Notes under the pieces: generated by a model | Seen by the model: only the letters and a program-made list of their open reading frames with translations | Told to the model about the DNA's origin: nothing | The model's database searches: none | Assembly (NCBI GenBank): GCA_051532055.1 | Contig: JAOPTX010000015.1 | Span: forward strand, 153,334 to 217,333 | Direction of reading: 5' to 3' | Source of the DNA: Fibrobacterales bacterium | Lineage (GTDB): Bacteria > Fibrobacterota > Fibrobacteria > Fibrobacterales > JAOPTW01 | Length of the DNA stretch: 64,000 nucleotides | Made by a program: the position numbers and the translations under genes | Shown: positions 12,670 to 49,736 of the stretch, one piece after another | Layout of the letters: every line of letters starts with the position of its first letter | Position numbering within the stretch: position 1 is the first letter of the stretch

Positions 12670-13293
12670 ATGGGTATTATTCTTAAAGGTTTTGGCTTGG
12701 ATCAATCCGGATGGGGCTTCATGTGGGCAATTGCAATCATGGGTGGTCTTGCACTGGGTCTTACAGTAGAGAGATTTTACTACATAGTGATTAAGTCTGG
12801 CAAAGGCAGAAAAGAGTTTATGAAAAATATTGCCGGAATGCTAAAATCTGAAAAAGTATCCGAAGCTATTAACTATGCAAAAACATCAGAGCTTCCATTA
12901 GCAAAATGTATTTATGCTGTGTTGTCTAACAAAGATCGTGGTGAGAAAGGGATGACTAAAGCACTTGATGAAGTATTCCTTACTGAAGCTCCAAGGGTTA
13001 ATCGTTATTTAAGTGTTCTGATGACTCTTGCAAATGTTGCAACACTCGTGGGTCTTATTGGTACTATTTTTGGTCTAATCATGGCGTTTGATGCGGTAGC
13101 GAATTTACCTGCAGCTGAGAGACCAACCGCACTTGCAAATGGTATTGCAGTAGCGATGAATACTACCTTCTGCGGACTATTTGTGGCTATTCCACTCATG
13201 TTTGCTCAGGGATATTTTTCAATGGAATCTGAAAGAATAATTGAAGAAATGGAAGAAAAATCACTGAAAGTTATCAATCTGTTTGATAAATAG
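12670..13293 (+). CDS. exbB: MotA/TolQ/ExbB-family proton channel
   Basis: 207 aa with VGLIGTIFGLIMAF and AVAMNTTFCGLFVAIPL motifs. An AGGAG Shine-Dalgarno site lies upstream. Confidence 0.85.
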   Translation: MGIILKGFGLDQSGWGFMWAIAIMGGLALGLTVERFYYIVIKSGKGRKEFMKNIAGMLKSEKVSEAINYAKTSELPLAKCIYAVLSNKDRGEKGMTKALDEVFLTEAPRVNRYLSVLMTLANVATLVGLIGTIFGLIMAFDAVANLPAAERPTALANGIAVAMNTTFCGLFVAIPLMFAQGYFSMESERIIEEMEEKSLKVINLFDK

Positions 13294-13333
13294 AAACTAT
13301 CAAATTATTGATTAACCTTTTCAAGGATTGTCC

Positions 13334-14134
13334 ATGTCGAGAAAAAGAAAAAAGATAAAAGCAGATGATCTCGATCTGTTGCCGGTAATGAATCTCTTTT
13401 CGATTCTAATTCCGTTTTTGCTTTCAGTTGCTGTTTTTCAAAAAATGGCAATTGTTGAAGTAAATATGCCATCGAGATCTATAATGAATAATGCCCCCAA
13501 TAAACCCGATGATCAATCATTATCATTAACGGTAGCTATTACTGGAAATGGATTGGAATTGTGGGCTCGGGGTGGTTCTTTGCCGAAAATTTATACGAAG
13601 GAGATGCATACATACAGATGTAAGTCTGATGAAAGCTCTTTTCGTGTTGATCCGGCTAAATTTAGCGAACAAAATCCTGTGAAGTGTAAAAGTGGCGATG
13701 TTGCTTCGAAATACGAGATAGAGACTATACATCTCTATGGTCTTGAAAAAACATCTGAAAAAGATCCAGGTAAAATAATGAAAGCAGTATACAATAGTAA
13801 CGACTCTGTTATTATTGACCAAACTGCAAATTTTATTCAACGACTTGACACTCTTAAGGTAGGAGATATTGTAGCTACCCTTGAAGAGGGATCAGGCCGA
13901 AAGGCTGACGCTGAAATAATGAGCGGTTTTCGTGAAGATTATCTCTCGGGTTATGATATGCTCGCTAAGACGTTAATTGGTATTAACAATCGATTTGGTG
14001 ACCTGCCTGATGCACAAAATATAATTGTACTTGCAGATGATAAAATCGTGTTCGATAAAGTAATCAATGTTATGGATGTTGCTCGTGAAGCTGGCTTTTT
14101 TAAGATCCAACTTGCTAAATTGGGAGGGAGCTAA
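13334..14134 (+). CDS. exbD: ExbD/TolR-family protein, long variant with an internal insertion of about 130 aa
   Basis: N-terminal TM with a conserved Asp (DLDLLPVMNLFSILIPFLL) and a C-terminal IIVLADDKIVFDKVINVMDVAREAGF. About twice the normal ExbD length. The ATG at 13334 follows AAGGA. Confidence 0.7.
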   Translation: MSRKRKKIKADDLDLLPVMNLFSILIPFLLSVAVFQKMAIVEVNMPSRSIMNNAPNKPDDQSLSLTVAITGNGLELWARGGSLPKIYTKEMHTYRCKSDESSFRVDPAKFSEQNPVKCKSGDVASKYEIETIHLYGLEKTSEKDPGKIMKAVYNSNDSVIIDQTANFIQRLDTLKVGDIVATLEEGSGRKADAEIMSGFREDYLSGYDMLAKTLIGINNRFGDLPDAQNIIVLADDKIVFDKVINVMDVAREAGFFKIQLAKLGGS

Positions 14135-14634
14135 TGGCACGTATGGGTAGAACCTATGGTGAAAAAGAGCAAAAGCTTAATATCACCTCTATGATGGACG
14201 CATTTACAATTGTACTTGTGTTTCTTCTCAAATCATTTGCTGCAGAAGGTAACCTTCTTACTCAAGCTGACAATATGAAACTTCCCTATTCTGTTTCTCA
14301 GAAACAACCAACAGAAGTATCTCTTTTGATTGTTGTTGACTCTGATCAGGTTCTTATTGATAACGTTCCCGTTATTGAAACGAAATTAGTTCGTGCTCAA
14401 GATTCACTTCTTGTAGCTCCAATGGTCGAAGAACTGAAAAAGAAGCGCGATGCTGAAAAGAAAGCTGCGTTAATCAGGGGCGATGATGGTGATGGCGAAG
14501 AAGGTGGTAAAGTTATCGTACAGCTCGATAAAAATACAGAGTATGACATTATGTACAAAGTAATGGCGACTTGTGGATTTGCAGAATATAATAATGTGGC
14601 CTTTGCAGTAGTGCAGAGAACACCAGGAGATTAA
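14134..14634 (+). CDS. exbD: ExbD/TolR-family protein
   Basis: 166 aa with NITSMMDAFTIVLVFLL in the TM and VIVQLDKNTEYDIMYKVMATCGFAEY at the C-terminus. Its start overlaps the previous stop (TAATG). Confidence 0.8.
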   Translation: MARMGRTYGEKEQKLNITSMMDAFTIVLVFLLKSFAAEGNLLTQADNMKLPYSVSQKQPTEVSLLIVVDSDQVLIDNVPVIETKLVRAQDSLLVAPMVEELKKKRDAEKKAALIRGDDGDGEEGGKVIVQLDKNTEYDIMYKVMATCGFAEYNNVAFAVVQRTPGD

Positions 14635-14645
14635 CAGGAGAACCA

Positions 14646-15593
14646 ATGACTAAAAATGATCCTAAAAATAATAAGGTAAAAGAAGTCGACAGGTTTACCG
14701 AAGCCCTGATGCCTGAGTCAGACGAAAGGGTGTATAAGTTTTCTGTTGTCTTTATAATTATTTCTTTAATCGCTTCTGCGCTATTTACAACTATTGTAAT
14801 TGTTCCTGAAATTATTCTCGCTAAGGAAACTGCCGAAATTGAAGCAGTTATGAAGATCGAGGAAAAAAAGAAGGAAGAGAAAAAAGAAGAGAAAAAGAAA
14901 AAAGCGAAGAAGAAACGCAAAAAGACCGGTGGTGGTGGTAAAAAACGCGGCAAGGGGACTCCAAATGCTCCGCAAAGTCGTGGTGTATTAAAGTTGTTAA
15001 CCTCACGTACTACAAAATCGGGCTTTAGTGCTTATTCGCTTATGAAAAACAAGAGCTTTGCTAAAGATATCAACAAGGTTCTTAAGAATGTTGCAGGTCT
15101 TCAAAAGACTGGAAAAACCAAATTGGGTGGTCGTCGAGGTAAAAAAACCTCTAAGTTTAATGACGGGTATGCGGAAGGTGGATCTGGTGGTATTGGAGAT
15201 ATGCTGAGTGGACTTCTTGGTGGGGGCGGCGGTGCTGTTTCTACTGGAGCTAAAGGTAAATTCAGAGCGCCAAGTAGCTCGGATATTGATATGGGTCAAG
15301 GAGGGGGCAACCGTTCTAAGTCATCTATCATGCGAGTTGTGAGAAGTCGTTCTCCTGGTCTGCGTCATATTTATAATAAATACCTTAAAAAGCATCCTGG
15401 CTTTGCTGGTAAAGTAAATTTGAATTTCACTATTGCCCCAAGCGGCAAAATCATTAAGATTAAAATAGTGGGATCCTCTACAGGGGTTAAAGCCTTTGAC
15501 AATGAGGTTAAAAACAAAGTACGTCGTTGGAAATTCGAAAGAATTAAATCGGGTAACTGTACGATTACGCTTCCCTTTGCTTTCTCTGAATAG
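14646..15593 (+). CDS. TonB/TolA-like energy transducer with an AgmX/PglI-type C-terminal domain
   Basis: N-terminal TM, a Lys/Glu-rich linker, Gly-rich stretches, and a C-terminal LRHIYNKYLKKHPGFAGKVNLNFTIAPSGKI..RWKF pattern. Confidence 0.65.
   Translation: MTKNDPKNNKVKEVDRFTEALMPESDERVYKFSVVFIIISLIASALFTTIVIVPEIILAKETAEIEAVMKIEEKKKEEKKEEKKKKAKKKRKKTGGGGKKRGKGTPNAPQSRGVLKLLTSRTTKSGFSAYSLMKNKSFAKDINKVLKNVAGLQKTGKTKLGGRRGKKTSKFNDGYAEGGSGGIGDMLSGLLGGGGGAVSTGAKGKFRAPSSSDIDMGQGGGNRSKSSIMRVVRSRSPGLRHIYNKYLKKHPGFAGKVNLNFTIAPSGKIIKIKIVGSSTGVKAFDNEVKNKVRRWKFERIKSGNCTITLPFAFSE
14859..14904 (+). repeat. 46-nt uninterrupted homopurine tract (codes the E/K linker)
   Basis: Reading 14859-14904 directly gives only A/G (GAGGAAAAAAAGAAGGAAGAGAAAAAAGAAGAGAAAAAGAAAAAAG). 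Confidence 0.8.
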
Positions 15594-38977: not shown

Positions 38978-40147
38978 ATGATTGTTTTTTGGCGCGAGAT
39001 GACCGTGTCCCAGTTTAAAAAAGATTTGACGAGTAGTGAACTGGTGGATCTTCTTTTTAAATATACTGCAAAGATTGCTGAGGAGCGTAGCCTTGACAAT
39101 CTTTTAATCTTAATGAATGACCTCGGTAAAAAACTGGTTGTGTGTGATCGCTGTACCCTGTGGCTTATTGATAAAAACAAACAAGAGGTATGGACTAAAG
39201 TTGCTCATGGGGTGGATGAAATTAGGATGCCCATCGGTAAGGGTGTTGTTGGAGAATGCATCATGACAGGTCAATCAATAATAATTGATAACGCCTACAA
39301 TCACCCTACTTTTAATAAAACAATTGATAAAGAGACGGGTTATCAAACGCGTTCAATTATTGCGGAACCTATTTATGATGGAGGTGGTTCTATCATGGGG
39401 GTGTATCAAGCAATTAATAAACTTACTGAAGAAGGGCGATTTACACAATCTGATCTAGAACACATGAATCTCAGTGCAACCTATCACGGCAAAGCTCTTG
39501 AGTCTGCAATGCTCCTTAAGGAGATTGAGAGCACCCAGAGCGACCTTGTTTTTATTTTGGGTGAAGCGGGGGAGAGTCGATCAAAAGAAACGGGTAATCA
39601 TGTGAAGCGGGTGGCGGGGTACTGTGAGATTCTATCGCGTGCTTATGGATTGCCTGACGAAGAAGTTGAGTTGATAAAAATAGCTTCACCACTTCATGAC
39701 TTAGGTAAAATTGCTATTCCGGATTCGATATTGAAAAAACCTGGTAAATTGACATTCGAAGAGTTTGAGATTATGAAAACCCATGCGCAAATTGGTGAGG
39801 ATATTTTAATGGGCTCAGACCGACCACTCATAAATGCCGCTCGAATTATTGCTGGTGAACATCATGAAAAATGGAATGGAAAAGGGTACCCACGTGGGAC
39901 TTCAGGAGAAGCAATTCATCTCTATGGAAGAATTGCCGCAATTGCTGATGTATTTGATGCATTAGTGAGTGATCGGTGCTATAAAAAAGCTTGGCCTATC
40001 GAGAAAGTCTTGATTCTTTTTCGAGAAGAACGAGGAGAGCACTTTGATCCATCTTTGGTAGATCTCTTTTTTGAAAACCTCCAGGAATTTATCCGTATAA
40101 AAGAGGCCTATGTTGATGAATTTGATGCGTCTCAAGCAGTGTATTAA
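38978..40147 (+). CDS. GAF-domain / HD-GYP-domain protein (putative c-di-GMP phosphodiesterase)
   Basis: The GAF-like N-half contains CDRCTLWLID..GVVGEC. The C-half has HDLGKIAIPDSIL and HHEKWNGKGYPRG (HD-GYP). The start may instead be the ATG at 38999. Confidence 0.85.
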   Translation: MIVFWREMTVSQFKKDLTSSELVDLLFKYTAKIAEERSLDNLLILMNDLGKKLVVCDRCTLWLIDKNKQEVWTKVAHGVDEIRMPIGKGVVGECIMTGQSIIIDNAYNHPTFNKTIDKETGYQTRSIIAEPIYDGGGSIMGVYQAINKLTEEGRFTQSDLEHMNLSATYHGKALESAMLLKEIESTQSDLVFILGEAGESRSKETGNHVKRVAGYCEILSRAYGLPDEEVELIKIASPLHDLGKIAIPDSILKKPGKLTFEEFEIMKTHAQIGEDILMGSDRPLINAARIIAGEHHEKWNGKGYPRGTSGEAIHLYGRIAAIADVFDALVSDRCYKKAWPIEKVLILFREERGEHFDPSLVDLFFENLQEFIRIKEAYVDEFDASQAVY

Positions 40148-41170: not shown

Positions 41171-41959
41171 ATGAAATATACAGGCATAATTTTAGCTTCT
41201 ATTCTTGTCGCACTTTGCTTTTTAGCTTGTGGTGACAAAGAAGAGAAAAAAGTTGATATTATTACTGAAACCCTTGGACAGCCTGTGAATGACTCAGAGA
41301 ATGGCCCAGCAACTGATATCCCTGAAGAAGAATTTGAGGATATCGAAGAAGCGGTTATTCCAGAAGAGCCTACAGCCCTAGCGGATGATGAATATATACC
41401 AAAGCTGTATGAATCAGGGCCATATGTATTACAAGTTGGCGTGAGTCCTTCCGAGGTGATTGCAAGGAAATTATCAGCAAAAATCGAATCTAAGGGATAC
41501 ACACCTTATATATCTATGGTAGAGAACCCTGGTGATCTCGTTGGTACTTTTTATCGTGTTCGGATTGGGTATTTTAAGTCTTTAACTCAGGCGCGACTTT
41601 TTGGACATAATGTACTTATGCCTATGAATATCGCTTTTTGGATTGATAACCGAAAAAATGATGAGGTGGGTAACCCAACAAAAACCGAAGAAGATGTTGG
41701 CGATGAAGAGATGGAGGATGAGTTAGTTGAAGAGGTGACAGACGTTACTGTTGAATCAGATGACACCGAACAACCTGTTAAGAACGAAGAAATGTCGCCA
41801 GCTGCTGATAATGAAGTAACTTCAGAAGAAGTACCAGCGGCATTTACTGCTCCCAAAAAAGAAAAGATTCAAGGGTCAAAGACTAAAAAAACACCAGGGA
41901 AAGGTGATGATTGGGCAAGTGACTCGGATGATTGGGCAAATGATGATTGGGGCAAGTAG
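41171..41959 (+). CDS. SPOR-domain lipoprotein with an acidic DDW-repeat tail
   Basis: Lipobox FLACG. A SPOR-like core (YVLQVGVSPSEVIARKLSAKIESKGY..FYRVRIGYFKSLTQA). C-terminal GDDWASDSDDWANDDWGK. Confidence 0.7.
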   Translation: MKYTGIILASILVALCFLACGDKEEKKVDIITETLGQPVNDSENGPATDIPEEEFEDIEEAVIPEEPTALADDEYIPKLYESGPYVLQVGVSPSEVIARKLSAKIESKGYTPYISMVENPGDLVGTFYRVRIGYFKSLTQARLFGHNVLMPMNIAFWIDNRKNDEVGNPTKTEEDVGDEEMEDELVEEVTDVTVESDDTEQPVKNEEMSPAADNEVTSEEVPAAFTAPKKEKIQGSKTKKTPGKGDDWASDSDDWANDDWGK

Positions 41960-42044
41960 AAAATAAGCGGTAATTTACTATCTTTTATACGTAAGTATGG
42001 TCAGGCATAATGTCTGGCCATTTTTTTGTAATATGCGAGGAATA

Positions 42045-43361
42045 ATGTCTGATCAAGTTGGGAAGAAAGTTGGTATTATAAATTTAGGCTGTTCAAAAAA
42101 TCTTGTTGATGGTGAGTCCATTGTATCAGAGTTTAGTGAACAGGGCTATGAGCTTTCGGAGTCTATTGAAGAATGTGAAGTTATCCTTGTAAATACGTGT
42201 GGTTTTATTGAAAGCGCCAAAGAAGAGTCAATCAATGAGATTCTTGGAGTGTGTAAGCAAAAACAAGATGGACAAAAAGTTGTAGTAACTGGATGCTTAT
42301 CTGAGCGGTATAAAGAAGAGCTTAAGAAAGAAATCCCTGAAGTTGATCTCTTTGTTGGTAATTATGTACCAGGTGAATTGATACAAAAACTTGACATCTC
42401 TCAAGAGGAGCTCTGTTCAACGGGAAGTTTTGCTAAAAGAATTCTTCTGGGGGCAGAACACCACCACGCTTATCTTAAAATTAGCCGCGGGTGTAACCGC
42501 ACGTGTGGTTTTTGTGCTATACCACTTTTTAAGGGAAAACAAGATTCTCGAACTATCGATAGTGTGGTGCGTGAAGCACAGTGGCTTCAAGAGCAAGGGA
42601 TACAAGAGATCTCTTTAGTTGCTCAAGACCTCACTTATTTTGGTAGAGAAAAGCGTAAGGGTGAGACACTTGAGAAACTTCTTAAGACACTCATGAAAGA
42701 GACAGATATTCCTTGGTTTAGATTAATGTATATGTATCCTGGCTTTGTAGATGATGGGCTTCTTGAAACGATTGCAGTACAGGATCGAATTTGTAATTAT
42801 ATCGATATGCCACTGCAACATGGCTCAGATAGAATGCTGAAAAATATGAGAAGAGGACACACTAAAGAGCAGCTTCTTACTATTCTCAGGAAATTTAGAA
42901 ATGCAATTCCTGACCTGGCCATCAGAACAACTTTTTTACTTGGGTATCCAGGTGAAACTGAGGAAGATTTTCAACAACTTATGGAAATGGTTGATGAGTT
43001 TAAATTTGACCGCCTTGGATGTTTTACCTTCTCAACAGAGGAAGGTACACCTGTAATGGATATGGGTCTTCCTTCTGTGCCTCTAGACGTTGCAGAAGAA
43101 CGGGTTGAAGAGCTTATGACCATGCAGCAGAATATCTCGTTAGAGCGTAATCAAAGTCTCATAGGCTCTATTCAAAATGTTATTATTGATAGCGTTCCTG
43201 AGGGAAGTGATTATCATTTTGTTGGCCGTACCCAATGGGATGCTCCTGAAGTTGATAATTTTGTTAATATCGTTGAAGGCTCTGCCGATTTGGGGAGCTT
43301 TAGAAAAGTTCAAATAATTGATGGGTCGGAATATGATCTAGAAGCTCGATTTGTAGATTAG
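42045..43361 (+). CDS. rimO: ribosomal protein S12 methylthiotransferase
   Basis: Contains VGIINLGCSKNLVDGE, the radical-SAM motif CNRTCGFC and a TRAM-like C-terminus. The ATG at 42045 follows GAGGAA; the ORF is open from 41997. Confidence 0.9.
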   Translation: MSDQVGKKVGIINLGCSKNLVDGESIVSEFSEQGYELSESIEECEVILVNTCGFIESAKEESINEILGVCKQKQDGQKVVVTGCLSERYKEELKKEIPEVDLFVGNYVPGELIQKLDISQEELCSTGSFAKRILLGAEHHHAYLKISRGCNRTCGFCAIPLFKGKQDSRTIDSVVREAQWLQEQGIQEISLVAQDLTYFGREKRKGETLEKLLKTLMKETDIPWFRLMYMYPGFVDDGLLETIAVQDRICNYIDMPLQHGSDRMLKNMRRGHTKEQLLTILRKFRNAIPDLAIRTTFLLGYPGETEEDFQQLMEMVDEFKFDRLGCFTFSTEEGTPVMDMGLPSVPLDVAEERVEELMTMQQNISLERNQSLIGSIQNVIIDSVPEGSDYHFVGRTQWDAPEVDNFVNIVEGSADLGSFRKVQIIDGSEYDLEARFVD

Positions 43362-43494: not shown

Positions 43495-44151
43495 TTACTT
43501 GCGTTTACCTGTGATTTTGTCTTCGAGTTTAAAAAGGCTGCCGTATAGCTGAATCAGGTCGTCAATCCAGATAGCGTCACGCTCTGAAATTAGTTTACAG
43601 ACTTCAGAAACGTTGTTTGCATTGTTGTAAGGGCCCACTTGATTGTCAATTTTAGCAAAAGGTCTCATGAAGACTGAAGCTGAAAATTGAGCCCTCAAAG
43701 AGCGGTGAAGGCGGTCAAAGAGGCGTTTTTTAACTGTTTGAATGTCTTGCTGAATTGTATTGGGAGGTACTTTTTCACTCAGCTTTTTCTGAATATCGGC
43801 AAGTTCGGAAGCAATTGATTCTTTGTCTGGCTTTGGTATATAGAGTTGCTTATTGATAAAGAAGCGCTTAAGGTTTTTAAATTCTCGTTCTAAGAGTTCA
43901 GGACCAAAGGTGTTTGCAAAAGGTGTAAAGTCTTTGGTTATTTCTTTTATTTTTAAGTGTTTACCTTGGCGTTCTGCCCATGTATCAAGTCGCTCTATCA
44001 ATCGTAGTGCTATAGGTTCATTTCCTACTAAAAGGAATGACTCAGCTTGAATTATTATGGTGTCAGCATAGGCGTATTTATGTGTTCCACTTACTGTGTC
44101 ACTTTTCAGTTGGGCTATTCTTTTTTTCCACTCATTAATACGCGTTTGCAT
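43495..44151 (-). CDS. hypothetical cytoplasmic protein, last gene of the stator operon
   Basis: 218-aa ORF 5 nt after the MotB-like stop. No TM or signal peptide, helical character, no motif recognised. Confidence 0.5.
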   Translation of the reverse strand: MQTRINEWKKRIAQLKSDTVSGTHKYAYADTIIIQAESFLLVGNEPIALRLIERLDTWAERQGKHLKIKEITKDFTPFANTFGPELLEREFKNLKRFFINKQLYIPKPDKESIASELADIQKKLSEKVPPNTIQQDIQTVKKRLFDRLHRSLRAQFSASVFMRPFAKIDNQVGPYNNANNVSEVCKLISERDAIWIDDLIQLYGSLFKLEDKITGKRK

Positions 44152-44156
44152 TTTAA

Positions 44157-44828
44157 TTATCCGTCTATTTTTGAATCGATTGTAGGGACTCGGATGATCT
44201 CTACTCGTCTATTTTTCATACGATTGGATTCGTGACTGTTTTCAACCTTGGGGCGGAACTCACCAAAACCTGCAGCAAAAATTCTTGATGGTACTAATGT
44301 ATTACTTTTCTTCATAAGTATGTTTACCACATTAGTCGCTCTCTTTGTAGAGAGTTCCCAGTTTGATTTAAAGAATTTAGAATTAATAGGTATATCGTCT
44401 GTATGCCCTGCCACCATGAGCATTTCATTCTTTCCAAGACTACTTCCTAAGACGTCACTTATTTTTCGAAGGACATCTTTACCTTTCTTTTTAACTATTG
44501 AACTACCGGTCGAGAAAAGAAACTCTGCTTGTATTTCAATTTTACCATCAGTTAAAGTGACAGACCCATCTCTGAGAGAGTTTCCGAGGGCTTGTGCAAG
44601 AAGAGCGTCACGCTCGCGCTCTGCTTTCTCCTTTGCGGCTTTCTCTTTTTGAAACTCCTCTTCTTTACGAGTGAATGCATCGATTTGTTTTGTTAGCTCT
44701 GCTTCTTTATCAGATTTCAGTGAAGACATAAATATAAATGCGATAAGAAAGAGTACGAAGAGAGCCATGGTCAAGTCGGTAAACATAATCCATGGAGTTT
44801 CATCGTGTTTATCTAGGTGAATAGCCAT
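44157..44828 (-). CDS. MotB/OmpA-family stator subunit (ZorB-like)
   Basis: N-terminal TM with a conserved Asp (WIMFTDLTMALFVLFLIAF), a coiled-coil linker, and an OmpA-type peptidoglycan-binding C-domain (GHTDDIP..NWELSTKRA..NRRVEI). There is no gap to the upstream gene. Confidence 0.8.
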   Translation of the reverse strand: MAIHLDKHDETPWIMFTDLTMALFVLFLIAFIFMSSLKSDKEAELTKQIDAFTRKEEEFQKEKAAKEKAERERDALLAQALGNSLRDGSVTLTDGKIEIQAEFLFSTGSSIVKKKGKDVLRKISDVLGSSLGKNEMLMVAGHTDDIPINSKFFKSNWELSTKRATNVVNILMKKSNTLVPSRIFAAGFGEFRPKVENSHESNRMKNRRVEIIRVPTIDSKIDG

Positions 44829-46622
44829 CTAAACCTCTGGCTCCTGGTCATACTCTTCAAGTGATTCACCTTGTAATTTCACTTGCTCTAAAACTTCAAT
44901 AAGAATTTCTTGAGTCTTGAGTGCATTTTCAACCAACACTTCTGAGGCTTTCTCATGGAAGGCCTCGAGGGTGGATTCAAGCTTCTCATAAAAACTATTT
45001 TGGTCATCTGTTTCAGATTCAGAAGAAGAGATGTGTTCAATTAAAGATTCAACTCCTATAGTAAACATCTCGAGAGATGCTTGGAACTCAACTTGGTTGA
45101 TTTTCATGAGGTTACCGCCCTCAGAAATATTTTCAGTAAAGTTCATGAGTGAACTCATTTGCTCTGAGTATTGGGTTTCAAGTTCTTTACCTAATTTTTC
45201 TTGTATCTCAAAATTGACTTTTGCCGCTTGGGCGAGGGTTTCGAACTCGTCTTGTAGCTTGCTAAACCCATCTCGACTTATCATACTGATAGACTCTTTG
45301 AGGCTTTCTGTAAACTCGGTTGTTTTTTGGAATACGGTATCCATCTGACCTTGATTATGGCTCATGTATTCAGTTTGAAGCCCCCTGGATTGCTCTTGGT
45401 GGGTATTGAGTAGTTCCATCTGTTTTTCAATTTGCTGCCCTTGAGCTTCTGGTATGGACTGTATTACAGTGTGGAGATTGTCGAGTTGAGTTGAAACACC
45501 TTGTGTACTCAGCTCAGCAATTTCTTTTTGCATATCAGGAATGGTTTTAATAAAACTGTTCAGCTCTGAAAGGCGCTCAGCAATTTCATTTGATGTGTTA
45601 CTGCTAATTTCTTTTTGGGATTCAAGAATTGAGTGGGCGCTATTCTCAACTTGAGAACTAAATGATGCGAGAAGTTCTCTTTGAGTTTCAATGGCCTCTG
45701 AGGCACTTTGGGAATGTTTGCTAATGATGTCATCAAGAACGGATTTATGAGAGCCAGAGAGTTGTTCAATTACTAGAGAGTTTGCATCTGTGATTGATTG
45801 TTGCAATGTGGTAAACGTAGACTCTAGTTTGTCACTAATTTGGTTACTCAGTGATGCAGAGTTATTGGTTAGCTGTGTACTCATATCGTTTGAGTGTTCA
45901 GTAAGTTTACTGCCAAGGGAATCTACAAATTGTGAGAGGTTACTGCTGAGCTCTGTAATGAGTTGTTCATTACGATTCTCCTGTTCAGGAGCGAGCTGGG
46001 GAATGAGATAAAAGTGAGTGTACTCTTCTACTTCGGACATCATCTCAATATAAGCATTTTTAACCACAGAGTTTGCGACGCTTAAAAGCATGAATGCAAT
46101 GAGACCTGTTAAACTGGTGCCAAAAATACCATTCATGTCAGAGAAAATTGTAGTTATAAGTGTTTGAATTTCAAAACTTTCACTCATTGAACTTCCGGCT
46201 GTGGAAATTGCACCCATCAAGCCAAAAAAGGTGCCAAGAAGACCGAGAGTCATAGTAAGATTGGCTGCTGAAGAGCCTAGTTTACTCGAAGCGCGAGCAG
46301 AGAGTATTTCAGAAAATGCAGAGAGGTCGACATGTTGATCGCGAGATTGTAGATCTTTGAGGATTTCATAGCGCTGATAGATAATTCTATCAGAAGGTTC
46401 AATAGTCGAATTTCCCGTACTCTTTTGTTCATGGATAGCATCTATTTCTGCTTGGGCAAAGGCGAGATTCTTAAGGTTCTTTAATTGGGTATATGCAAAG
46501 ATAGCAAGGAGCACTCCCCATATTACATAGCCATAAAGGGGGAACTGAAAATAGAGACACCCAATAAGACCTGCAAGTCCGAGGATGCTGAGAAAGATTA
46601 TTTTCCGTACAGCTGCTTTCAT
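44829..46622 (-). CDS. MotA/ExbB-like channel protein with a helical C-terminal tail of about 400 aa (ZorA-like architecture)
   Basis: Two N-terminal TM segments, then LGLLGTFFGLMGAI and GIFGTSLTGLIAFMLL (MotA_ExbB signature). Residues from about 200 to 597 are Ser/Gln/Glu/Leu-rich with no further TM. Confidence 0.75.
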   Translation of the reverse strand: MKAAVRKIIFLSILGLAGLIGCLYFQFPLYGYVIWGVLLAIFAYTQLKNLKNLAFAQAEIDAIHEQKSTGNSTIEPSDRIIYQRYEILKDLQSRDQHVDLSAFSEILSARASSKLGSSAANLTMTLGLLGTFFGLMGAISTAGSSMSESFEIQTLITTIFSDMNGIFGTSLTGLIAFMLLSVANSVVKNAYIEMMSEVEEYTHFYLIPQLAPEQENRNEQLITELSSNLSQFVDSLGSKLTEHSNDMSTQLTNNSASLSNQISDKLESTFTTLQQSITDANSLVIEQLSGSHKSVLDDIISKHSQSASEAIETQRELLASFSSQVENSAHSILESQKEISSNTSNEIAERLSELNSFIKTIPDMQKEIAELSTQGVSTQLDNLHTVIQSIPEAQGQQIEKQMELLNTHQEQSRGLQTEYMSHNQGQMDTVFQKTTEFTESLKESISMISRDGFSKLQDEFETLAQAAKVNFEIQEKLGKELETQYSEQMSSLMNFTENISEGGNLMKINQVEFQASLEMFTIGVESLIEHISSSESETDDQNSFYEKLESTLEAFHEKASEVLVENALKTQEILIEVLEQVKLQGESLEEYDQEPEV

Positions 46623-46640: not shown

Positions 46641-47582
46641 TTACTTTTTATTTTTAAAGAGGTCGAGTTGTCCTTGTGAAAATCCGCGCGAAAATATTTC
46701 CCACTTAGTTTTGTACCAGTGTGATAATTCGAGAGAGATTCCCAGGCAAAAGTCGATATAATCTTCTGTAAATGCTCTGAAACCATTGTCCCATAAACCT
46801 AGTGGGTTCCACACTCTATTACCAATAGCGTTAAAAAGTGCAGCTTCAGTAGCGTAATAGCGTTTAGGTTGTTTTTGAATACCTGTGATAAACTTCTTTT
46901 GTGCAAGTGTGTAGAGGGAGCTTCGTATGTTTGTAATTACATTTTGATCTATGTTACGAAGACCGGCTTCAAGGGTAGGGAGTATCTTGGTTACAGGGGT
47001 CGAAATAGAATTTTGATGCCAAAGATTCGATCCATTTTTTTGAATATGGGTTGCTCGTGAATAAGTTGTAACAAGATTTTTTTCTGAATCGCCTACCATC
47101 AGATGGAGTGTTTGTAAAAAGAAATCTTTTATCTCTTTGGTGCGATGGCCAACTTTAAGTCGGTACCCCTCATCACTTTTTTCAATCCAGCCACCTTCTC
47201 TAAGGACGGGAAGCATGACATCAGCGGTGAGTCTCTGAGCCCATTTAGATCTGAAGTCTGCAAATTTATCTTCTATTTCTTTATTCAGGGCGTTAAACTC
47301 TCGTTGGCAAAATTTGAGACACTCTTCTGATTCAGAAATATATTCACTCTCTAGGGTGAAGTTTTTCTGAGATTGTTCAATATGTTCCCTTAATATAATG
47401 GAGTATGAGTTGTTCATTGAATGACTCAATTGTTGAACTACCTCTTGTTGAGGCAAAAAGCTTTTAAGGTCAACAATTGACTGACCGGTAAACTGTTTGA
47501 AAGCTTTCCTGAAGTTACTATCCAAAGGGTATATTTTCGGTTGAATTTCGAAGTAGAAATATAGAAATTCTAGGGGGATCAA
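46641..47582 (-). CDS. hypothetical cytoplasmic protein
   Basis: 313-aa ORF 18 nt upstream of the MotA-like gene. No TM and no recognised motif. The start is uncertain: the TTG at 47582 lacks a Shine-Dalgarno site. Confidence 0.45.
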   Translation of the reverse strand: MIPLEFLYFYFEIQPKIYPLDSNFRKAFKQFTGQSIVDLKSFLPQQEVVQQLSHSMNNSYSIILREHIEQSQKNFTLESEYISESEECLKFCQREFNALNKEIEDKFADFRSKWAQRLTADVMLPVLREGGWIEKSDEGYRLKVGHRTKEIKDFFLQTLHLMVGDSEKNLVTTYSRATHIQKNGSNLWHQNSISTPVTKILPTLEAGLRNIDQNVITNIRSSLYTLAQKKFITGIQKQPKRYYATEAALFNAIGNRVWNPLGLWDNGFRAFTEDYIDFCLGISLELSHWYKTKWEIFSRGFSQGQLDLFKNKK

Positions 47583-47639: not shown

Positions 47640-48332
47640 TTAAAAAGTAGTTTCTATTGATTTCCAGATAGATTTCGCGATTTTCTTCTCTGTTATTGGT
47701 TTTTGACTCATGTTGATAGCATTCATGATTCGATTGTTTTTGTTCACCGATTGGGTAAGCTTCAATACGCCATCCATTTCAAGATAAGTACCAAATGCAT
47801 TGTTCTCAATAGTAGCACCTTTCACAGATACCTCTCCATTTGCAACAGTAATACCATAGCGGTTCTCGGTAAATGACCCACCACTAATGTGAACATCCTT
47901 AGAATTTTCGATCCATACACCATAATGGTTATTGATAAATTGACTCTCTTTTAATGTACCGTGAACATTGAGAAATGAATTTTTAAAGCCGTTCATAATC
48001 ACAACATAATTCATGACAATTGGTGATTGAGACCCATTAATATGCAGTCCAACCCAATGATTACTCGGGTTCTCGGCATGAAAAACAATGTTTTTTTGAG
48101 GGGTACCAAGAAATCGGATATGGCCTCTCAGGAGGAGCTTTGTGTAGTTTCTAAATTTGAGTACAACACCACCTTCAATCGTAAGAGTGTCTTCAGTATT
48201 GTTAAAAAGGTTTTCGTCGATTATATAGGGGCTATCACCCTGGTGAAGATAGACAGAACCCTTAAGAGAGGTTAGTATGGTGTTGGCATTGAGAGTTGTA
48301 ACGAGTAGCGCAATTGATAAAAATTTTATCAT
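47640..48332 (-). CDS. secreted parallel beta-helix repeat protein
   Basis: Signal peptide (MIKFLSIALLVTTLNA), and PbH1-like repeats of about 22 aa (NNHYGVWIENSKDVHISGGSFTENRYGITVANGEVSVKGATIENNAFGTYLE). Confidence 0.6.
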   Translation of the reverse strand: MIKFLSIALLVTTLNANTILTSLKGSVYLHQGDSPYIIDENLFNNTEDTLTIEGGVVLKFRNYTKLLLRGHIRFLGTPQKNIVFHAENPSNHWVGLHINGSQSPIVMNYVVIMNGFKNSFLNVHGTLKESQFINNHYGVWIENSKDVHISGGSFTENRYGITVANGEVSVKGATIENNAFGTYLEMDGVLKLTQSVNKNNRIMNAINMSQKPITEKKIAKSIWKSIETTF

Positions 48333-49123
48333 GGAACCCTCTGAAGTGTAACAGACTGAATAATTTGATAATTTGGGAATAGCTTGTTTGCAATTTTAAG
48401 ACTGACAGTTCCGGAAATATCAAAATTGCCAAACTCCAGATCACCATCATCAATGTTAAACACAAGAGAACCTTGGCCAAGAATAAAATTATCTTCTGCT
48501 ATCATTAGTGCACTCTCTTCTATTTTGTATTTAAGAGTGGTTAAAATTTTGGCAAATGACTGATCACCATTGGAATAAATATCATTGACTTTAAACCATT
48601 TATAAAGGTAGTTGCTCCTGTTTTCTCCTGTAGGAATTTTGAGTTGCTTTTCCCAGGTGTCCCCGATGTATGTTTCATGCCTGGGGAGAGATGGCTGAAT
48701 TTTAAGGAGGATGTTTGCGAGGTTAAAACCTGATACTTCCATTTCATCTGCAGCATTATTTTTTTCAAAGTCCTTGATTTCACCATAGGGATTAATTTTA
48801 AACTCAGATTTTTGAGAAAGAAGATAGTGCTCAATATGACGACACTCTTCTACGGTATATTGATTAGATCTGAAATCAATAGAGTCTATTCCGATTAAAA
48901 ACCGGCTGGTTTTGTCGTCAAAAGCTGATAGCAATGATTTGGTGAAGTAGATTTGCGCTTCACTAAAGAAACTACTCTCAGAGTCACCCGAAATCAGTTG
49001 GAGCTTTGTTTGTAAGAAATAATGACGTGGGGTTTCAGAAGTAAGATTAAAAGAGAGTTGTTTTGTCTCTTTTTGACACGCTGTAAATATGAGGATTGTT
49101 AATAAAAGGAGTGTTTTACCCAT
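48329..49123 (-). CDS. hypothetical lipoprotein
   Basis: Lipobox LIFTAC and beta-rich character. Overlaps the next gene by 4 nt (ATGA). Confidence 0.55.
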   Translation of the reverse strand: MGKTLLLLTILIFTACQKETKQLSFNLTSETPRHYFLQTKLQLISGDSESSFFSEAQIYFTKSLLSAFDDKTSRFLIGIDSIDFRSNQYTVEECRHIEHYLLSQKSEFKINPYGEIKDFEKNNAADEMEVSGFNLANILLKIQPSLPRHETYIGDTWEKQLKIPTGENRSNYLYKWFKVNDIYSNGDQSFAKILTTLKYKIEESALMIAEDNFILGQGSLVFNIDDGDLEFGNFDISGTVSLKIANKLFPNYQIIQSVTLQRVP

Positions 49124-49127
49124 TAAG

Positions 49128-49736
49128 TTAGTCTTCGCTAAAATCTATTGTAACATTTGTTAAATTTAAGTCTTTTAGCTGCGACTTTTGGGATAAATTT
49201 CGATACTCATCATTATTCTGGATGATTAACCCAAGTATTTTTGCACAATCTTCAGCTGTTTCTGCTACAACGAGCTCCTCAATATCTGGTGAAAATAGAT
49301 AGAATTTACCATCTTTTTGCCATTGAAGGGTTTTGATATTAGCTTCATCAAGTGCTGTTTCAACAATGGTTGGTTTCTTGATTTGTGAAGTAATAATCTC
49401 TTTGAGCTCATCAGGTGGAGTTGTTTTTAGAATACATTGATTGATTTTGTAGTTCTTAGCTTTTTTGGTAATGGTTTTATCAAATTCAGCTGAAGTAAGA
49501 AGAATAGGGGTGCGTTTGTATTGAGGAAGTTTGCGGATTTTTGTTGCGAGGTCAAATCCAGTGATACCTCCACCAAGATTATATTCTACAAGGAATGCAT
49601 CAAAAGTGTGTGATTTAATTAATTTCAAGGCATCCTGAACATTATTGGCAGGAAAAGTCTCTGCAATATCACTCAGATCTTTGGAGGTTTGCGCAGTTGC
49701 CTCTTTGCTGTCATCTAAATGGAGTATGTTAAACAA
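49128..49736 (-). CDS. single-domain receiver protein with Glu at the phospho-acceptor position plus a C-terminal domain of about 80 aa and unknown function
   Basis: CheY-like landmarks are present: LHLDDS (acidic pair), FLVEYNL (E51 where the Asp is expected), ILLTSA (Thr) and ILKTT (Lys). TTG start 4 nt after GAGGTGA. Confidence 0.7.
   Translation of the reverse strand: MFNILHLDDSKEATAQTSKDLSDIAETFPANNVQDALKLIKSHTFDAFLVEYNLGGGITGFDLATKIRKLPQYKRTPILLTSAEFDKTITKKAKNYKINQCILKTTPPDELKEIITSQIKKPTIVETALDEANIKTLQWQKDGKFYLFSPDIEELVVAETAEDCAKILGLIIQNNDEYRNLSQKSQLKDLNLTNVTIDFSED

What the first reader, a model, noticed from the sequence alone, without database searches (positions are those of the whole stretch)
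44832..45995. Cytoplasmic tail of about 400 residues on the MotA-like protein
**Seen.** After the last TM (GIFGTSLTGLIAFMLLSVANSVV), the protein continues for about 400 residues. This stretch has no hydrophobic segment and is dominated by S/Q/E/L/T. Examples are LSSNLSQFVDSLGSKLTEHSNDMSTQLTNNSASLSNQISDKLESTF and LESTLEAFHEKASEVLVENALKTQEILIEVLEQVKLQ.

An internal pair of similar kink motifs is present: IKTIPDMQKEIAEL and IQSIPEAQGQQIEKQ.

**Inference.** This is a long alpha-helical or coiled-coil tail. Using the general figure of about 0.15 nm rise per helical residue, a fully extended tail would span tens of nm. Ordinary MotA, TolQ and ExbB proteins, including the ExbB at 12670-13293 in this window (207 aa), have no such extension.
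Basis: partly seen in the sequence, partly recalled or inferred. Interest (0 to 1): 0.7.

Follow-up and report, generated by a model that had tools for sequence, protein, structure and literature searches.

The report
ZorA-like motor protein's long helical tail
The 400-residue tail is real and is the helical cytoplasmic shaft typical of ZorA, the membrane motor of the Zorya anti-phage system, but here it sits in a six-gene cluster with unknown partner proteins that is conserved in every related Fibrobacterota locus examined.

Summary
The gene at 44829-46622 (-) encodes a 597-aa protein with four N-terminal TM segments and a 410-aa acidic tail that has no hydrophobic segment.

- **Tail structure.** AlphaFold2 predicts the tail as almost all helix. 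Its hydrophobic residues repeat every 3.66 residues (11/3, hendecad), not every 3.5. Genuine type III ZorA tails give the same signal.
- **Homology.** The head matches ZorA and the next gene matches ZorB (OmpA-type, invariant TM Asp). The tail is therefore best read as a ZorA-type shaft about 45-65 nm long.
- **Conservation.** All 86 distinct homologues keep a tail (301-456 aa). The middle is variable and indel-rich. The last ~130 residues are as conserved as the channel helices.
- **Accessory genes.** The gene order g3-A-B-g6 mirrors type III Zorya (ZorF-A-B-G). However, g3 and g6 show no significant similarity to ZorF, ZorG, ZorC, ZorD or ZorE. Two periplasmic genes (g1, g2) are added upstream.
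- **Distribution.** The cluster was found almost only in Fibrobacterota, always in the same order and mostly with the same neighbouring housekeeping genes.
- **Motor-less variant.** Soil Fibrobacteria keep g1, g3, tail with tip, and g6, but lack TM3-4, the B gene and g2.

Verdict: a new variant of a known kind. Its biological role (defence or housekeeping) is unresolved.

The parts
44829..46622 (-). Gene A: ZorA-like protein, 597 aa (four-TM head plus tail)
   Evidence: ORF. PADLOC ZorA3 2.9e-13 over aa 125-571. PDB profile hits to E. coli ZorA 8qyd at 1.7e-7 and Shewanella ZorA 8vvn_C at 2.9e-7. hhalign against genuine ZorA3 gives Prob 97.5.
46062..46622 (-). Head, aa 1-187: TM1-TM2 hairpin, cytoplasmic loop, TM3 (GLLGTFFGLM), periplasmic loop, TM4 (GIFGTSL)
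   Evidence: Hydropathy. The K/R-rich loop at aa 48-121 and the K/R-free loop at aa 141-164 were read from the sequence and fit the positive-inside rule. The Foldseek search of the whole AF2 model matched TolQ, ExbB, MotA and ZorA chains of ~215-250 residues over ~210-250 aligned columns, TM-score ~0.5 when normalised to the target. TM3 and TM4 columns are 0.88-0.91 conserved.
45246..46061 (-). Tail shaft, aa 188-459: acidic helical segment with hendecad periodicity. The middle (aa ~240-380) is hypervariable and indel-rich.
   Evidence: AF2 helices. Period 3.66, with 0 of 300 shuffles reaching the observed power. Crisp register at aa 217-287, with positions 1, 5 and 8 of 11 hydrophobic. Conservation 0.2-0.4, with indel blocks of 6, 7, 11, 14, 18 and 29 columns.
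45420..45623 (-).
   Evidence: Offset-29 self-similarity score 48 against a null of -14.8 +/- 13. In alignment A1 only the window protein and its close relative P0002 have these motifs.
44832..45245 (-). Tail tip, aa 460-597: conserved module (LMxxNQxE..A.LEM; LEAFHE[KR]ASEVL.ENA.KTQEIL.EVLEQ) without a significant 3.66 periodicity
   Evidence: Conservation 0.76-0.93 and no indels. Periodicity not significant. About 32-42% identical over the last ~70-160 residues to the motor-less A' proteins, where the rest of the tail is not aligned by BLAST.
44157..44828 (-). Gene B: ZorB-like protein, 223 aa, one TM with invariant T17-D18-L19 plus an OmpA-type peptidoglycan-binding domain
   Evidence: PADLOC ZorB3 6.6e-39. 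Pfam OmpA 1.2e-16. hhalign against ZorB3 gives Prob 100. D18 invariant in 75 of 75 sequences. The gene abuts the stop codon of gene A.
46641..47582 (-). Gene g3: cytoplasmic all-alpha protein of ~294 aa (the real start is probably near 47525), immediately upstream of A
   Evidence: Conserved in all loci, including motor-less ones. 77 clusters, none with a Pfam domain; every cluster that carries a source name is Fibrobacterota. AF2 pLDDT 91.2, pTM 0.87. No fold match in PDB or BFVD.
43495..44151 (-). Gene g6: cytoplasmic protein of 218 aa, immediately downstream of B
   Evidence: Conserved in all loci, including motor-less ones. No Pfam, PADLOC or NCBIfam hit. Only a weak C-terminal resemblance to DUF2894/ZorG (Prob 2.7-10.7).
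47640..48332 (-). Gene g2: protein of 230 aa with an N-terminal signal-peptide-like segment and a right-handed beta-helix
   Evidence: Pfam Beta_helix 1.2e-8 and NosD 1e-5. Present in all four-TM loci and absent from motor-less loci. The signal-peptide-like N-terminus was read from the sequence.
48329..49123 (-). Gene g1: probable lipoprotein of 264 aa (N-terminal hydrophobic stretch ending ...FTAC); orthologues hit DUF6263
   Evidence: Conserved. DUF6263 at 1.7e-6 to 1e-4 in orthologues, 28.2 bits against a cut-off of 26.7 in the best case. Kept in 3 of 4 motor-less loci. The lipobox-like N-terminus was read from the sequence.
49128..49736 (-). Response-regulator receiver gene 4 nt upstream of g1; probably the first gene of the operon in this lineage only
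   Evidence: Pfam Response_reg 1e-11. Same arrangement in L002. Promoter-like site at 49819-49790 and terminator-like site at 49856-49831 just upstream; these are consensus matches only. Most Fibrobacter loci have a deaminase gene here instead.

Best explanation
The tail is the cytoplasmic shaft of a ZorA-type ion-driven membrane motor.

**Shown**
- The head is a MotA/TolQ/ExbB-fold channel subunit, homologous to ZorA.
- The adjacent gene B is a ZorB homologue with the invariant TM aspartate and a peptidoglycan-binding domain.
- The tail is acidic, helical and built on an 11/3 (hendecad) hydrophobic repeat, like genuine type III ZorA tails.
- Tail length varies only in the proximal and middle part. 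The C-terminal ~130 residues are a conserved module.

**Inferred by homology**
- Five A subunits surround two B subunits.
- The five tails bundle into one unidirectional coiled-coil tube about 45-65 nm long.
- Ion flow through TM3/TM4 and B-Asp18 turns A and its tail around the cell-wall-anchored B dimer.
- The conserved tip is the docking or communication surface for the two conserved cytoplasmic partners g3 and g6, as the E. coli ZorA tip is needed to recruit ZorD.

**Context**
- The system is a g3-A-B-g6 module with the gene order of type III Zorya, but with accessory proteins that are not detectably related to Zorya's.
- It carries two extra periplasmic components (g1, g2).
- In the genomes examined it keeps the same gene order and mostly the same neighbouring housekeeping genes, which looks like vertical inheritance rather than transfer in a defence island.
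- Whether its output is phage defence or a housekeeping signal from envelope to cytoplasm is not resolved.
For: **Homology**
- PADLOC gives ZorA3 at 2.9e-13 and ZorB3 at 6.6e-39.
- hhalign against genuine type III proteins gives A 97.5% and B 100%.
- Among solved motor A subunits only ZorA chains are hit by sequence (8qyd, 8vvn).
- The Foldseek search of the AF2 model matches TolQ, ExbB, MotA and ZorA chains.

**Tail**
- AF2 predicts almost all helix.
- Period 3.66, 0 of 300 shuffles reach the observed power; 78 of 86 family members peak at 3.7.
- Genuine ZorA3 tails peak at 3.60-3.66 and are acidic.
- Tail length is 301-456 aa in 86 homologues.
- Indels occur only between aa ~214 and 402, and the tip has none. 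This fits a single-pass shaft and not a symmetric hairpin.

**Motor residues**
- B T17-D18-L19 is invariant in 75 of 75 sequences.

**Module**
- The order g1-g2-g3-A-B-g6 is found in every locus that is long enough (76 complete).
- g3, tail with tip, and g6 are retained together even where TM3/4, B and g2 are all missing. This ties TM3/4 to B, and the tail to g3 and g6.

**Published basis for tail function**
- PMC11946911 reports a tail modelled as a 70 nm pentameric bundle, loss of defence in all tail truncations, and a tip deletion that abolishes ZorD co-localisation.
- PMC11890865 reports that the five ZorA C-termini bundle into the tail.
Against: - The 5:2 stoichiometry, pentameric bundling and rotation were not tested here. 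The AF2 monomer has pLDDT ~45-55 in the tail.
- Pfam MotA_ExbB scores only E 0.041, below its threshold.
- The tail and tip show no significant profile similarity to ZorA3 tails (Prob 0.3-1.6). No DUF802 hit was found.
- No beta-hairpin is predicted in the cytoplasmic loop, unlike E. coli ZorA (PMC11946911).
- The motor-less variants show that tail, g3 and g6 can persist without any ion channel. Rotation is therefore not obligatory for whatever the tail module does.
- Tip-to-g3/g6 contact is inferred from co-retention only.
- No nuclease or other recognisable effector is present in the cluster.
Confidence: 0.6

Rival explanations
1. It is a genuine but very divergent type III Zorya anti-phage system. 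ZorAB senses envelope damage during phage entry and the tail activates g3 and g6, which would be unrecognisably diverged ZorF and ZorG.
For: - The gene order X-A-B-Y is the same as DUF3348-A-B-DUF2894, which was found in 45 of 45 complete metagenomic type III loci and in plasmid loci.
- Sizes are similar: g3 ~294 aa against ~230-256 aa, and g6 ~218 aa against ~189-232 aa.
- The best PADLOC hits for A and B are the type III models.
- g6 and DUF2894 align weakly at the equivalent C-terminal motif GP(Y/L)N..E..P..FL (P 0.003-0.017).
- The tip aligns collinearly with the ZorA3 C-terminus, but not significantly.
- Type III Zorya protects E. coli from phage (PMC8565338).
Against: - g3 against DUF3348 gives Prob 0.1-0.3.
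- PADLOC ZorF/ZorG models hit none of the 6 members of each family that were scanned.
- The cluster shows the same order and the same housekeeping neighbours: a TadA-like deaminase upstream in 64 of 78 loci, and argininosuccinate lyase downstream in 33. Only Fibrobacterota-named relatives turned up. This is unlike the patchy, island-borne distribution usual for defence systems.
- Two extra periplasmic genes are present.
- A motor-less variant is conserved.
Confidence: 0.3
2. It is a housekeeping, lineage-specific envelope machine of Fibrobacterota, for example envelope integrity, surface or adhesion organelle function, or cell-cycle signalling. The tail would act as a cytoplasmic scaffold or ruler and not as a defence signal wire.
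For: - 112 species-level genomes encode a relative, and the 80 loci kept are nearly all Fibrobacterota.
- The operon order is invariant and the neighbourhood is syntenic and housekeeping.
- The operon is coupled to a response regulator in this lineage and sits next to a Ser/Thr kinase in the motor-less lineage.
- Periplasmic lipoprotein and beta-helix partners are present.
- No nuclease-like effector is present.
[quoted passage not shown] The orthology is unverified.
Against: - No functional data exist.
- The only characterised relatives with such tails are defence motors.
- How many Fibrobacterota genomes lack the cluster was not measured.
- Chromosomally fixed defence systems do exist.
Confidence: 0.3
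3. The tail folds back on itself as an antiparallel helical hairpin, like a chemoreceptor signalling domain. It would then be about half as long, with its C-terminus returning to the membrane.
For: - Hu et al. report HHpred similarity of the distal ZorA tail to the chemosensory-array signalling unit (PMC11946911).
- AF2 puts helix breaks at aa 211-216, 288-291, 371-375 and 534-540.
Against: - Indels are confined to aa ~214-402, with none in aa 403-586. A symmetric hairpin needs matched indels in both arms.
- The most conserved part is the C-terminal end, not the middle where a hairpin tip would lie.
- E. coli ZorA is seen by negative-stain EM as a long tail, and deletions shorten it (PMC11946911).
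Confidence: 0.07
4. The tail is an apolipoprotein-like amphipathic region that lies on a membrane or lipid surface, or it is a disordered low-complexity S/Q/E/T linker.
For: - Pfam Apolipoprotein E 1.1e-4 and PDB profile hits to apoA-IV, apoA-I and apoE.
- An 11-residue periodicity is also typical of lipid-binding amphipathic helices (general knowledge).
- The composition is biased.
Against: - The Apolipoprotein score is 22.4 bits against a cut-off of 90.
- Net charge is -48, with K+R only 6.1%. That is unfavourable for binding an anionic bacterial membrane (inference).
- Only about 3 of every 11 positions are hydrophobic, a narrow stripe.
- A strong periodicity, few Pro and Gly, and an all-helix prediction argue against disorder.
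- The tip is highly conserved.
Confidence: 0.03

Closest known systems
ZorA/ZorB of Zorya type III (DUF3348-ZorA[DUF802]-ZorB-DUF2894; e.g. Caballeronia plasmid NZ_CP071132.1, Aquabacterium pTB101)
   Same: - The best profile matches for both A and B are to type III.
- The gene order is the same: accessory gene, A, B, accessory gene.
- The tail is long, acidic and helical with the same 3.6-3.66 periodicity.
- B has a TM Asp and an OmpA-type domain.
   Different: - g3 and g6 are not detectably homologous to DUF3348 or DUF2894.
- There is no DUF802 hit, and no significant tail or tip similarity.
- The tail is shorter: 301-456 aa against ~500-815 aa in the three ZorA3 examples.
- Two extra periplasmic genes are present.
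- Found here almost only in Fibrobacterota, with conserved synteny.
- A natural motor-less variant exists.
E. coli type I ZorAB (PDB 8qyd; Hu et al., Nature 2024, PMC11946911)
   Same: - Sequence-profile match over the TM3 region and proximal tail (1.7e-7).
- Same concept: an ion-motor head, a long cytoplasmic helical tail, and a tip required for partner recruitment.
   Different: - The E. coli ZorA tail follows TM3; here there are four hydrophobic segments.
- No beta-hairpin or Ca2+-site region is predicted in the cytoplasmic loop.
- The partners ZorC (EH-signature) and ZorD (nuclease) are absent. The confident g3 model returned no significant match to any PDB chain.
ExbB/TolQ/MotA 5:2 motor subunits, including the window's own ExbB at 12670-13293
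   Same: The head has the same fold and TM3/TM4 motifs (GLxGT..G). The B partner carries the TM Asp.
   Different: - These proteins have no long tail.
- Their partners are ExbD/TolR-type, or they work with flagellar rotor proteins.
- Pfam MotA_ExbB is below its threshold for this protein (0.041) and strong for the window's ExbB (4.6e-26).
Exchangeable apolipoproteins (A-I, A-IV, E)
   Same: Helical repeats based on 11 residues. This explains the weak Pfam and PDB hits.
   Different: The score is far below the family cut-off. The tail is acidic, has a narrow hydrophobic stripe, and lies in the cytoplasm fused to a membrane motor. The resemblance is in repeat type, not homology.

Membership tests
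ZorA (A subunit of Zorya 5:2 motors) | Sequence homology of the head to ZorA profiles or structures | tested here: met
   PADLOC ZorA3 2.9e-13 and 1.9e-10, ZorA1 7.9e-5. PDB 8qyd 1.7e-7 and 8vvn_C 2.9e-7. hhalign Prob 97.2-97.5 against genuine ZorA3.
ZorA (A subunit of Zorya 5:2 motors) | Long cytoplasmic alpha-helical tail following the last TM helix | tested here: met
   The tail is 410 aa and almost all helix. Period 3.66, the same as ZorA3 tails. It is present in all 86 homologues.
ZorA (A subunit of Zorya 5:2 motors) | Adjacent ZorB with a TM Asp and a peptidoglycan-binding domain | tested here: met
   ZorB3 6.6e-39. OmpA 1.2e-16. D18 invariant in 75 of 75 sequences.
ZorA (A subunit of Zorya 5:2 motors) | A5B2 stoichiometry with a pentameric tail bundle | not testable with these tools
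   Only a monomer AF2 model was possible. Multimer modelling or EM is needed.
ZorA (A subunit of Zorya 5:2 motors) | Beta-hairpin / Ca2+-binding membrane-proximal cytoplasmic domain (described for type I E. coli ZorA) | tested here: not met
   The AF2 secondary structure of aa 48-120 is helices only. This is a model-based test. The feature may be specific to type I (PMC11946911, PMC12505986).
Zorya type III system | Gene order accessory-zorA-zorB-accessory on one strand | tested here: met
   g3-A-B-g6 in the window and in every related four-TM locus whose contig covers the cluster (76 complete). Type III order confirmed.
Zorya type III system | ZorF = DUF3348 protein upstream of zorA | tested here: not met
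   No Pfam or PADLOC hit for the g3 family. hhalign Prob 0.1-0.3 against a 37-sequence DUF3348 profile.
Zorya type III system | ZorG = DUF2894 protein downstream of zorB | tested here: inconclusive
   No Pfam or PADLOC hit. hhalign finds only a 37-41 column C-terminal match, Prob 2.7-10.7, P 0.003-0.017.
Zorya type III system | DUF802 repeats in the ZorA tail | tested here: not met
   No PF05650 hit at E <= 0.1. Tail-to-tail hhalign gives Prob 1.6.
Zorya type III system | Protects against phage | not testable with these tools
   A phage challenge experiment is needed.
Zorya types I and II | ZorC + ZorD, or ZorE, encoded next to zorAB | tested here: not met
   PADLOC gives no hit for any of the five other genes scanned around A and B: the response regulator, g1, g2, g3 and g6. 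The g3 model returned no significant match to any PDB chain.
Flagellar stator MotA/MotB | MotA family membership and MotB equivalog scores | tested here: not met
   Pfam MotA_ExbB E 0.041, below the gathering score. All NCBIfam MotB/MotS/MotD scores are far below their cut-offs. The tail is absent from MotA. No flagellar gene lies in the cluster.
Apolipoprotein A1/A4/E domain | Pfam PF01442 at or above the gathering score | tested here: not met
   22.4 bits against a cut-off of 90.

The most novel reading that the evidence does not exclude
The Fibrobacterota cluster is not a defence system but a vertically inherited cellular machine derived from a ZorAB-type motor. Its functional core would be the coiled-coil tail with its conserved tip plus the two unknown cytoplasmic proteins g3 and g6. 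This core can work with or without ion-driven rotation. Natural variants that have lost TM3/4, ZorB and the beta-helix protein together, while keeping tail, tip, g3, g6 and the lipoprotein, point that way. If so, long-tailed 5:2 motors would have a second, non-immune biological role, and nature would have supplied its own 'motor-off' control.
Probability: 0.3. Interest if true: 0.8.

Novelty: new variant of a known kind. Interest (0 to 1): 0.55.

Why it matters
**How ZorA tails signal.** This is still an open question. This family shows which parts of the tail are constrained:
- a shaft that tolerates indels, many of them 7, 11, 18 or 29 columns long;
- a tip as conserved as the ion channel;
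- two partner proteins that always travel with the tail.

**A natural experiment.** Some lineages keep tail, tip and partners but have lost the channel helices, ZorB and the beta-helix protein together. This separates 'motor' from 'tail module' and can be exploited directly.

**Is it immunity at all?** A ZorAB-like system with conserved synteny across a phylum, and with no recognisable nuclease, raises the question of whether long-tailed 5:2 motors are always immune systems.

**Annotation.** Some orthologues are currently named 'fimbrial protein' or 'hypothetical protein'. Those names should be revised.

Tried and rejected
**Searches that found nothing**
- Pfam, PADLOC and NCBIfam scans of g3 and g6 gave no family.
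- Profile-profile comparison of g3 and g6 with DUF3348 and DUF2894 was run first with 4 seed sequences, then with 37-58 sequences harvested from 80 metagenomic type III loci. There was no significant match; only a weak g6/DUF2894 C-terminal motif appeared.
- The near-invariant Glu47-His48 in g3 suggested the ZorC 'EH signature'. The confident g3 model (pLDDT 91) found no significant match to any PDB chain (best E 0.23) or in BFVD. The idea was dropped.
- Tail and tip were compared with ZorA3 tails. The alignment is collinear but not significant, so no homology is claimed.
- A profile search for g3 relatives outside Fibrobacterota returned 77 clusters. None has a Pfam domain, and all the named ones are Fibrobacterota.
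- A literature search for the F. succinogenes orthologue found only one proteomics table entry, FSU_0286. The orthology is not verified by sequence.
- The MotAB evolution paper does not mention Fibrobacter and excluded Zorya proteins from its phylogenetic analyses.

**Readings rejected**
- The heptad coiled-coil reading was rejected: power at period 3.5 is ~0.06.
- The disorder, lipid-binding and hairpin readings were considered and down-weighted (see the rival explanations).
Full report
**1. The observation**

The gene at 44829-46622 on the minus strand encodes 597 aa. Hydropathy gives four hydrophobic segments, at about aa 5-27, 25-47, 122-140 and 165-188. The remaining 410 residues have no 19-residue window above a Kyte-Doolittle score of 0.77.

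The tail composition is E 14.4%, S 13.9%, L 10.2% and Q 9.5%, with 5 Pro and 12 Gly. Net charge is -48.

The loop at aa 48-121 carries nine K/R residues and the loop at aa 141-164 carries none (read from the sequence). By the positive-inside rule the tail is cytoplasmic.

The comparator gene at 12670-13293 is a normal ExbB. It hits Pfam MotA_ExbB at 4.6e-26 and is followed by two ExbD genes and a TonB gene.

**2. Physical nature of the tail**

AlphaFold2, run with 11 homologues, predicts helix for aa 152-210, 217-287, 292-370, 376-533 and 541-589. pLDDT is about 45-55 in the tail and 70-84 over most of the head.

A Fourier analysis of hydrophobic residues gives one dominant period of 3.66 residues. 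Its power is 3.23, against 1.12 +/- 0.28 for the maximum in shuffles, and 0 of 300 shuffles reach it. Power at 3.5 is 0.06. This is an 11/3 hendecad pattern, not a heptad one. In aa 217-287, positions 1, 5 and 8 of each 11 are hydrophobic. Of the 86 family members, 78 peak at 3.7 and 8 at 3.6.

Hendecads are associated with right-handed or nearly straight bundles (general knowledge). Hu et al. observed a right-handed supercoil at the start of the E. coli ZorA tail (PMC11946911).

The last ~130 residues show no significant periodicity.

Self-similarity is also high at offsets 11 and 22, and low at 7, 18 and 25.

**3. What family it is**

- PADLOC models match gene A as ZorA3 (2.9e-13, aa 125-571) and the next gene as ZorB3 (6.6e-39).
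- Pfam MotA_ExbB is sub-threshold for gene A, at E 0.041.
- A family profile searched against PDB sequences hits E. coli ZorA (8qyd, 1.7e-7) and Shewanella ZorA (8vvn_C, 2.9e-7). It hits no MotA, ExbB, TolQ or GldL chains. The other hits are apolipoproteins, which share 11-residue helical repeats.
- A Foldseek search with the AF2 model matches TolQ, ExbB, MotA and ZorA chains with TM-scores of about 0.5 when normalised to the target.
- I fetched genuine type III Zorya loci from plasmids: DUF3348, then DUF802/ZorA, then OmpA/ZorB, then DUF2894. I fetched 80 more from metagenomes.
- Profile-profile comparison with these gives A 97.5% (head only) and B 100%.
- Gene B has an invariant T17-D18-L19 in its TM helix in 75 of 75 sequences and an OmpA domain.
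- ZorA3 tails show the same 3.60-3.66 period and are also acidic.

The tail therefore belongs to the known class of ZorA tails. Published work models that tail as a pentameric bundle of about 70 nm. All tail truncations abolish defence, and deleting the tip abolishes ZorD recruitment (PMC11946911; also PMC11890865).

**4. Tail conservation**

Among 86 distinct homologues the head is 173-198 aa. The tail is 301-456 aa, with a median of 396. Mean frequency of the commonest residue per alignment column is:

| Region | Conservation | Notes |
|---|---|---|
| TM3/TM4 | 0.88-0.91 | |
| aa 241-380 | 0.21-0.56 (0.2-0.4 in most 20-residue blocks) | up to 60% gaps |
| aa 461-580 | 0.76-0.93 | no gaps |

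All indels fall between aa ~214 and 402. The insertion blocks are 6, 7, 11, 14, 18 and 29 columns long. Most of these are sums of 7 and 11, as expected if indels preserve the coiled-coil register (inference).

The one-sided distribution of indels argues against a symmetric antiparallel hairpin and for a single-pass shaft with a constant tip. At 0.15 nm per residue the family spans about 45-68 nm.

**5. Genomic context**

Five metagenomic contexts and 80 species-level genomes were examined. All show the same same-strand cluster wherever the contig allows: g1-g2-g3-A-B-g6. It is complete in 76 loci, and the rest are cut by contig ends.

- g1 is a probable lipoprotein. Its orthologues hit DUF6263.
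- g2 has a signal-peptide-like N-terminus and a beta-helix.
- g3 (~294 aa) and g6 (~218 aa) are cytoplasmic and hit no family.

The scan found 112 genomes that encode a relative. Of the 80 loci kept, almost all are Fibrobacter, Hallerella, Fibrobacteraceae or Fibrobacterales, including F. intestinalis ATCC 43854. Five loci (L064, L067, L075, L081, L083) carry other labels and all come from one series of 'cleanbin' assemblies; four of them place the match at the same coordinates as the uncultured-Fibrobacter loci L028 and L036. They are probably mis-binned.

The neighbours are housekeeping genes and are largely syntenic. A TadA-like deaminase lies upstream in 64 of 78 loci, a radical-SAM/SPASM gene in 37, and argininosuccinate lyase lies downstream in 33.

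In the window, a response-regulator gene sits 4 nt upstream of g1. A terminator-like and a promoter-like site lie just before it, so the operon here is probably seven genes.

This pattern is that of a vertically inherited core locus, not of a mobile defence island. That is an inference. The fraction of Fibrobacterota genomes that lack the cluster was not measured.

**6. The accessory genes**

The order g3-A-B-g6 is that of type III Zorya (ZorF/DUF3348, then A, then B, then ZorG/DUF2894; PMC8565338, PMC11890865), and the sizes are similar. Even so:

- g3 against DUF3348 gives Prob 0.1-0.3.
- g6 against DUF2894 gives only a 37-41 column C-terminal match (GP[Y/L]N..E..P..FL), with Prob 2.7-10.7.
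- A profile search with g3 found 77 clusters. None has a Pfam domain, and all the named ones are Fibrobacterota.
- g3 folds with high confidence (pLDDT 91.2, pTM 0.87) into an all-alpha structure. It has no significant match in the PDB (best E 0.23) or in BFVD.
- No nuclease-like effector is recognisable anywhere in the cluster.

**7. A motor-less variant**

The exhaustive HMM search found 52 representatives at E <= 1e-30. It also revealed proteins of 456-537 aa with only the two N-terminal TM segments, a tail of about 400-470 residues with the same 3.66 period, and the same tip motifs. They have no GTFFG/TM3-TM4 region.

These proteins come from 'Fibrobacteres' and 'Fibrobacteria' MAGs. Four contexts (L092-L095) read: pseudouridine synthase, Ser/Thr kinase with TPR repeats, g1, g3, A', g6. 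HMM searches confirm g3 and g6 in 4 of 4 loci and g1 in 3 of 4. No B or g2 is found within 6-7 kb, even in six-frame translation.

A further four-TM relative of unknown taxon has g3-A-B without g1 or g2.

So g3, the tail with its tip, and g6 form the invariant core. TM3/4, B and g2 are lost together. This links TM3/4 functionally to B, as expected for a channel. It also links the tail to g3 and g6, and it shows that the tail module can persist without a motor.

**8. Mechanism (best estimate)**

- *Shown:* ZorA/ZorB homology, a helical hendecad tail, a conserved tip, and co-retention of the tail with g3 and g6.
- *Inferred from the solved ZorAB structures:* an A5B2 complex anchored to peptidoglycan by B; ion flow past B-Asp18 turning the A pentamer and its single-pass tail bundle of ~45-65 nm; and the tip acting as the contact site for g3 and/or g6.
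- *Open:* the signal sensed, possibly through the periplasmic g1 and g2, and the output. I give roughly equal weight to 'divergent, chromosomally fixed Zorya-like defence' and 'housekeeping envelope-to-cytoplasm system'.

**9. Novelty**

A long helical tail on a MotA-like protein is already known from ZorA. What is new here:

- a ZorAB relative with a new accessory gene set, found almost only in Fibrobacterota;
- two added periplasmic components;
- conserved synteny with housekeeping neighbours;
- a clear division of the tail into shaft and tip;
- natural motor-less derivatives.

Some orthologues are currently annotated 'fimbrial protein' or 'hypothetical protein'.

Noticed in passing
L092-L095 (e.g. 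L092 4949-9544): 'Fibrobacteres' and 'Fibrobacteria' MAGs carry a motor-less version of the cluster: g1-g3-A'(2 TM + tail + tip)-g6. It has no ZorB and no beta-helix gene. It always lies downstream of a 900-960 aa Ser/Thr kinase with TPR repeats and a pseudouridine synthase gene.
   Followed up: partly
window 49128-49736 (-): A stand-alone response-regulator receiver gene lies 4 nt upstream of g1 and is preceded by terminator-like and promoter-like sites. This suggests two-component control of the operon in this lineage. Most Fibrobacter loci have a TadA-like deaminase at that position instead.
   Followed up: partly
L064, L067, L075, L081, L083: Contigs carrying the Fibrobacter-type cluster are labelled Oscillospiraceae, Eggerthellaceae, Sodaliphilus, Senegalimassilia and even Methanomethylophilaceae. 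All come from one series of 'cleanbin' assemblies. Four of the five place the match at the same coordinates as the uncultured-Fibrobacter loci L028 and L036. They are probably mis-binned Fibrobacter contigs.
   Followed up: no
L017 and L074 (both assembly JAKSIE01, Horse_feces13 MAG): One MAG holds two complete copies of the six-gene cluster on different contigs. This is either paralogy or a mixed bin.
   Followed up: no
L043, L056, L060 (upstream of g1): An extra g2-like beta-helix ORF (263 aa) lies on the opposite strand just upstream of the cluster in three Fibrobacter loci.
   Followed up: no
orthologues P0305, P0306 (NCBI MCQ2091863.1, MCQ2089041.1): NCBI names these ZorA-like proteins 'fimbrial protein'. 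[quoted passage not shown] The name probably comes from the biased tail composition.
   Followed up: partly
window 12670-15593 (+): An ordinary Ton system (ExbB, two ExbD, TonB) lies in the same window. The organism therefore has a tail-less 5:2 motor alongside the tailed one.
   Followed up: yes
window 38978-40147 (+), 41171-41959 (+) and 41997-43361 (+): Just beyond g6 lie a large ORF (38978-40147) and a small one (41171-41959) whose positional counterparts in the syntenic locus L002 carry GAF + HD and SPOR domains respectively. A 454-aa ORF (41997-43361) lies where L002 has a radical-SAM methylthiotransferase-like gene (UPF0004, Radical_SAM, TRAM). The window ORFs themselves were not scanned. 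All are housekeeping or signalling neighbours, with no integrase or other mobile-element gene among them.
   Followed up: no
g3 protein (window 46641-47525, -): g3 gives a very confident AF2 model (pLDDT 91, pTM 0.87) with no significant match in PDB or BFVD. It has near-invariant residues, including E47-H48, D146/E148, R157, K180 and a C-terminal W-Y..K-W...R-G motif. It is possibly a new fold or a new functional site.
   Followed up: partly
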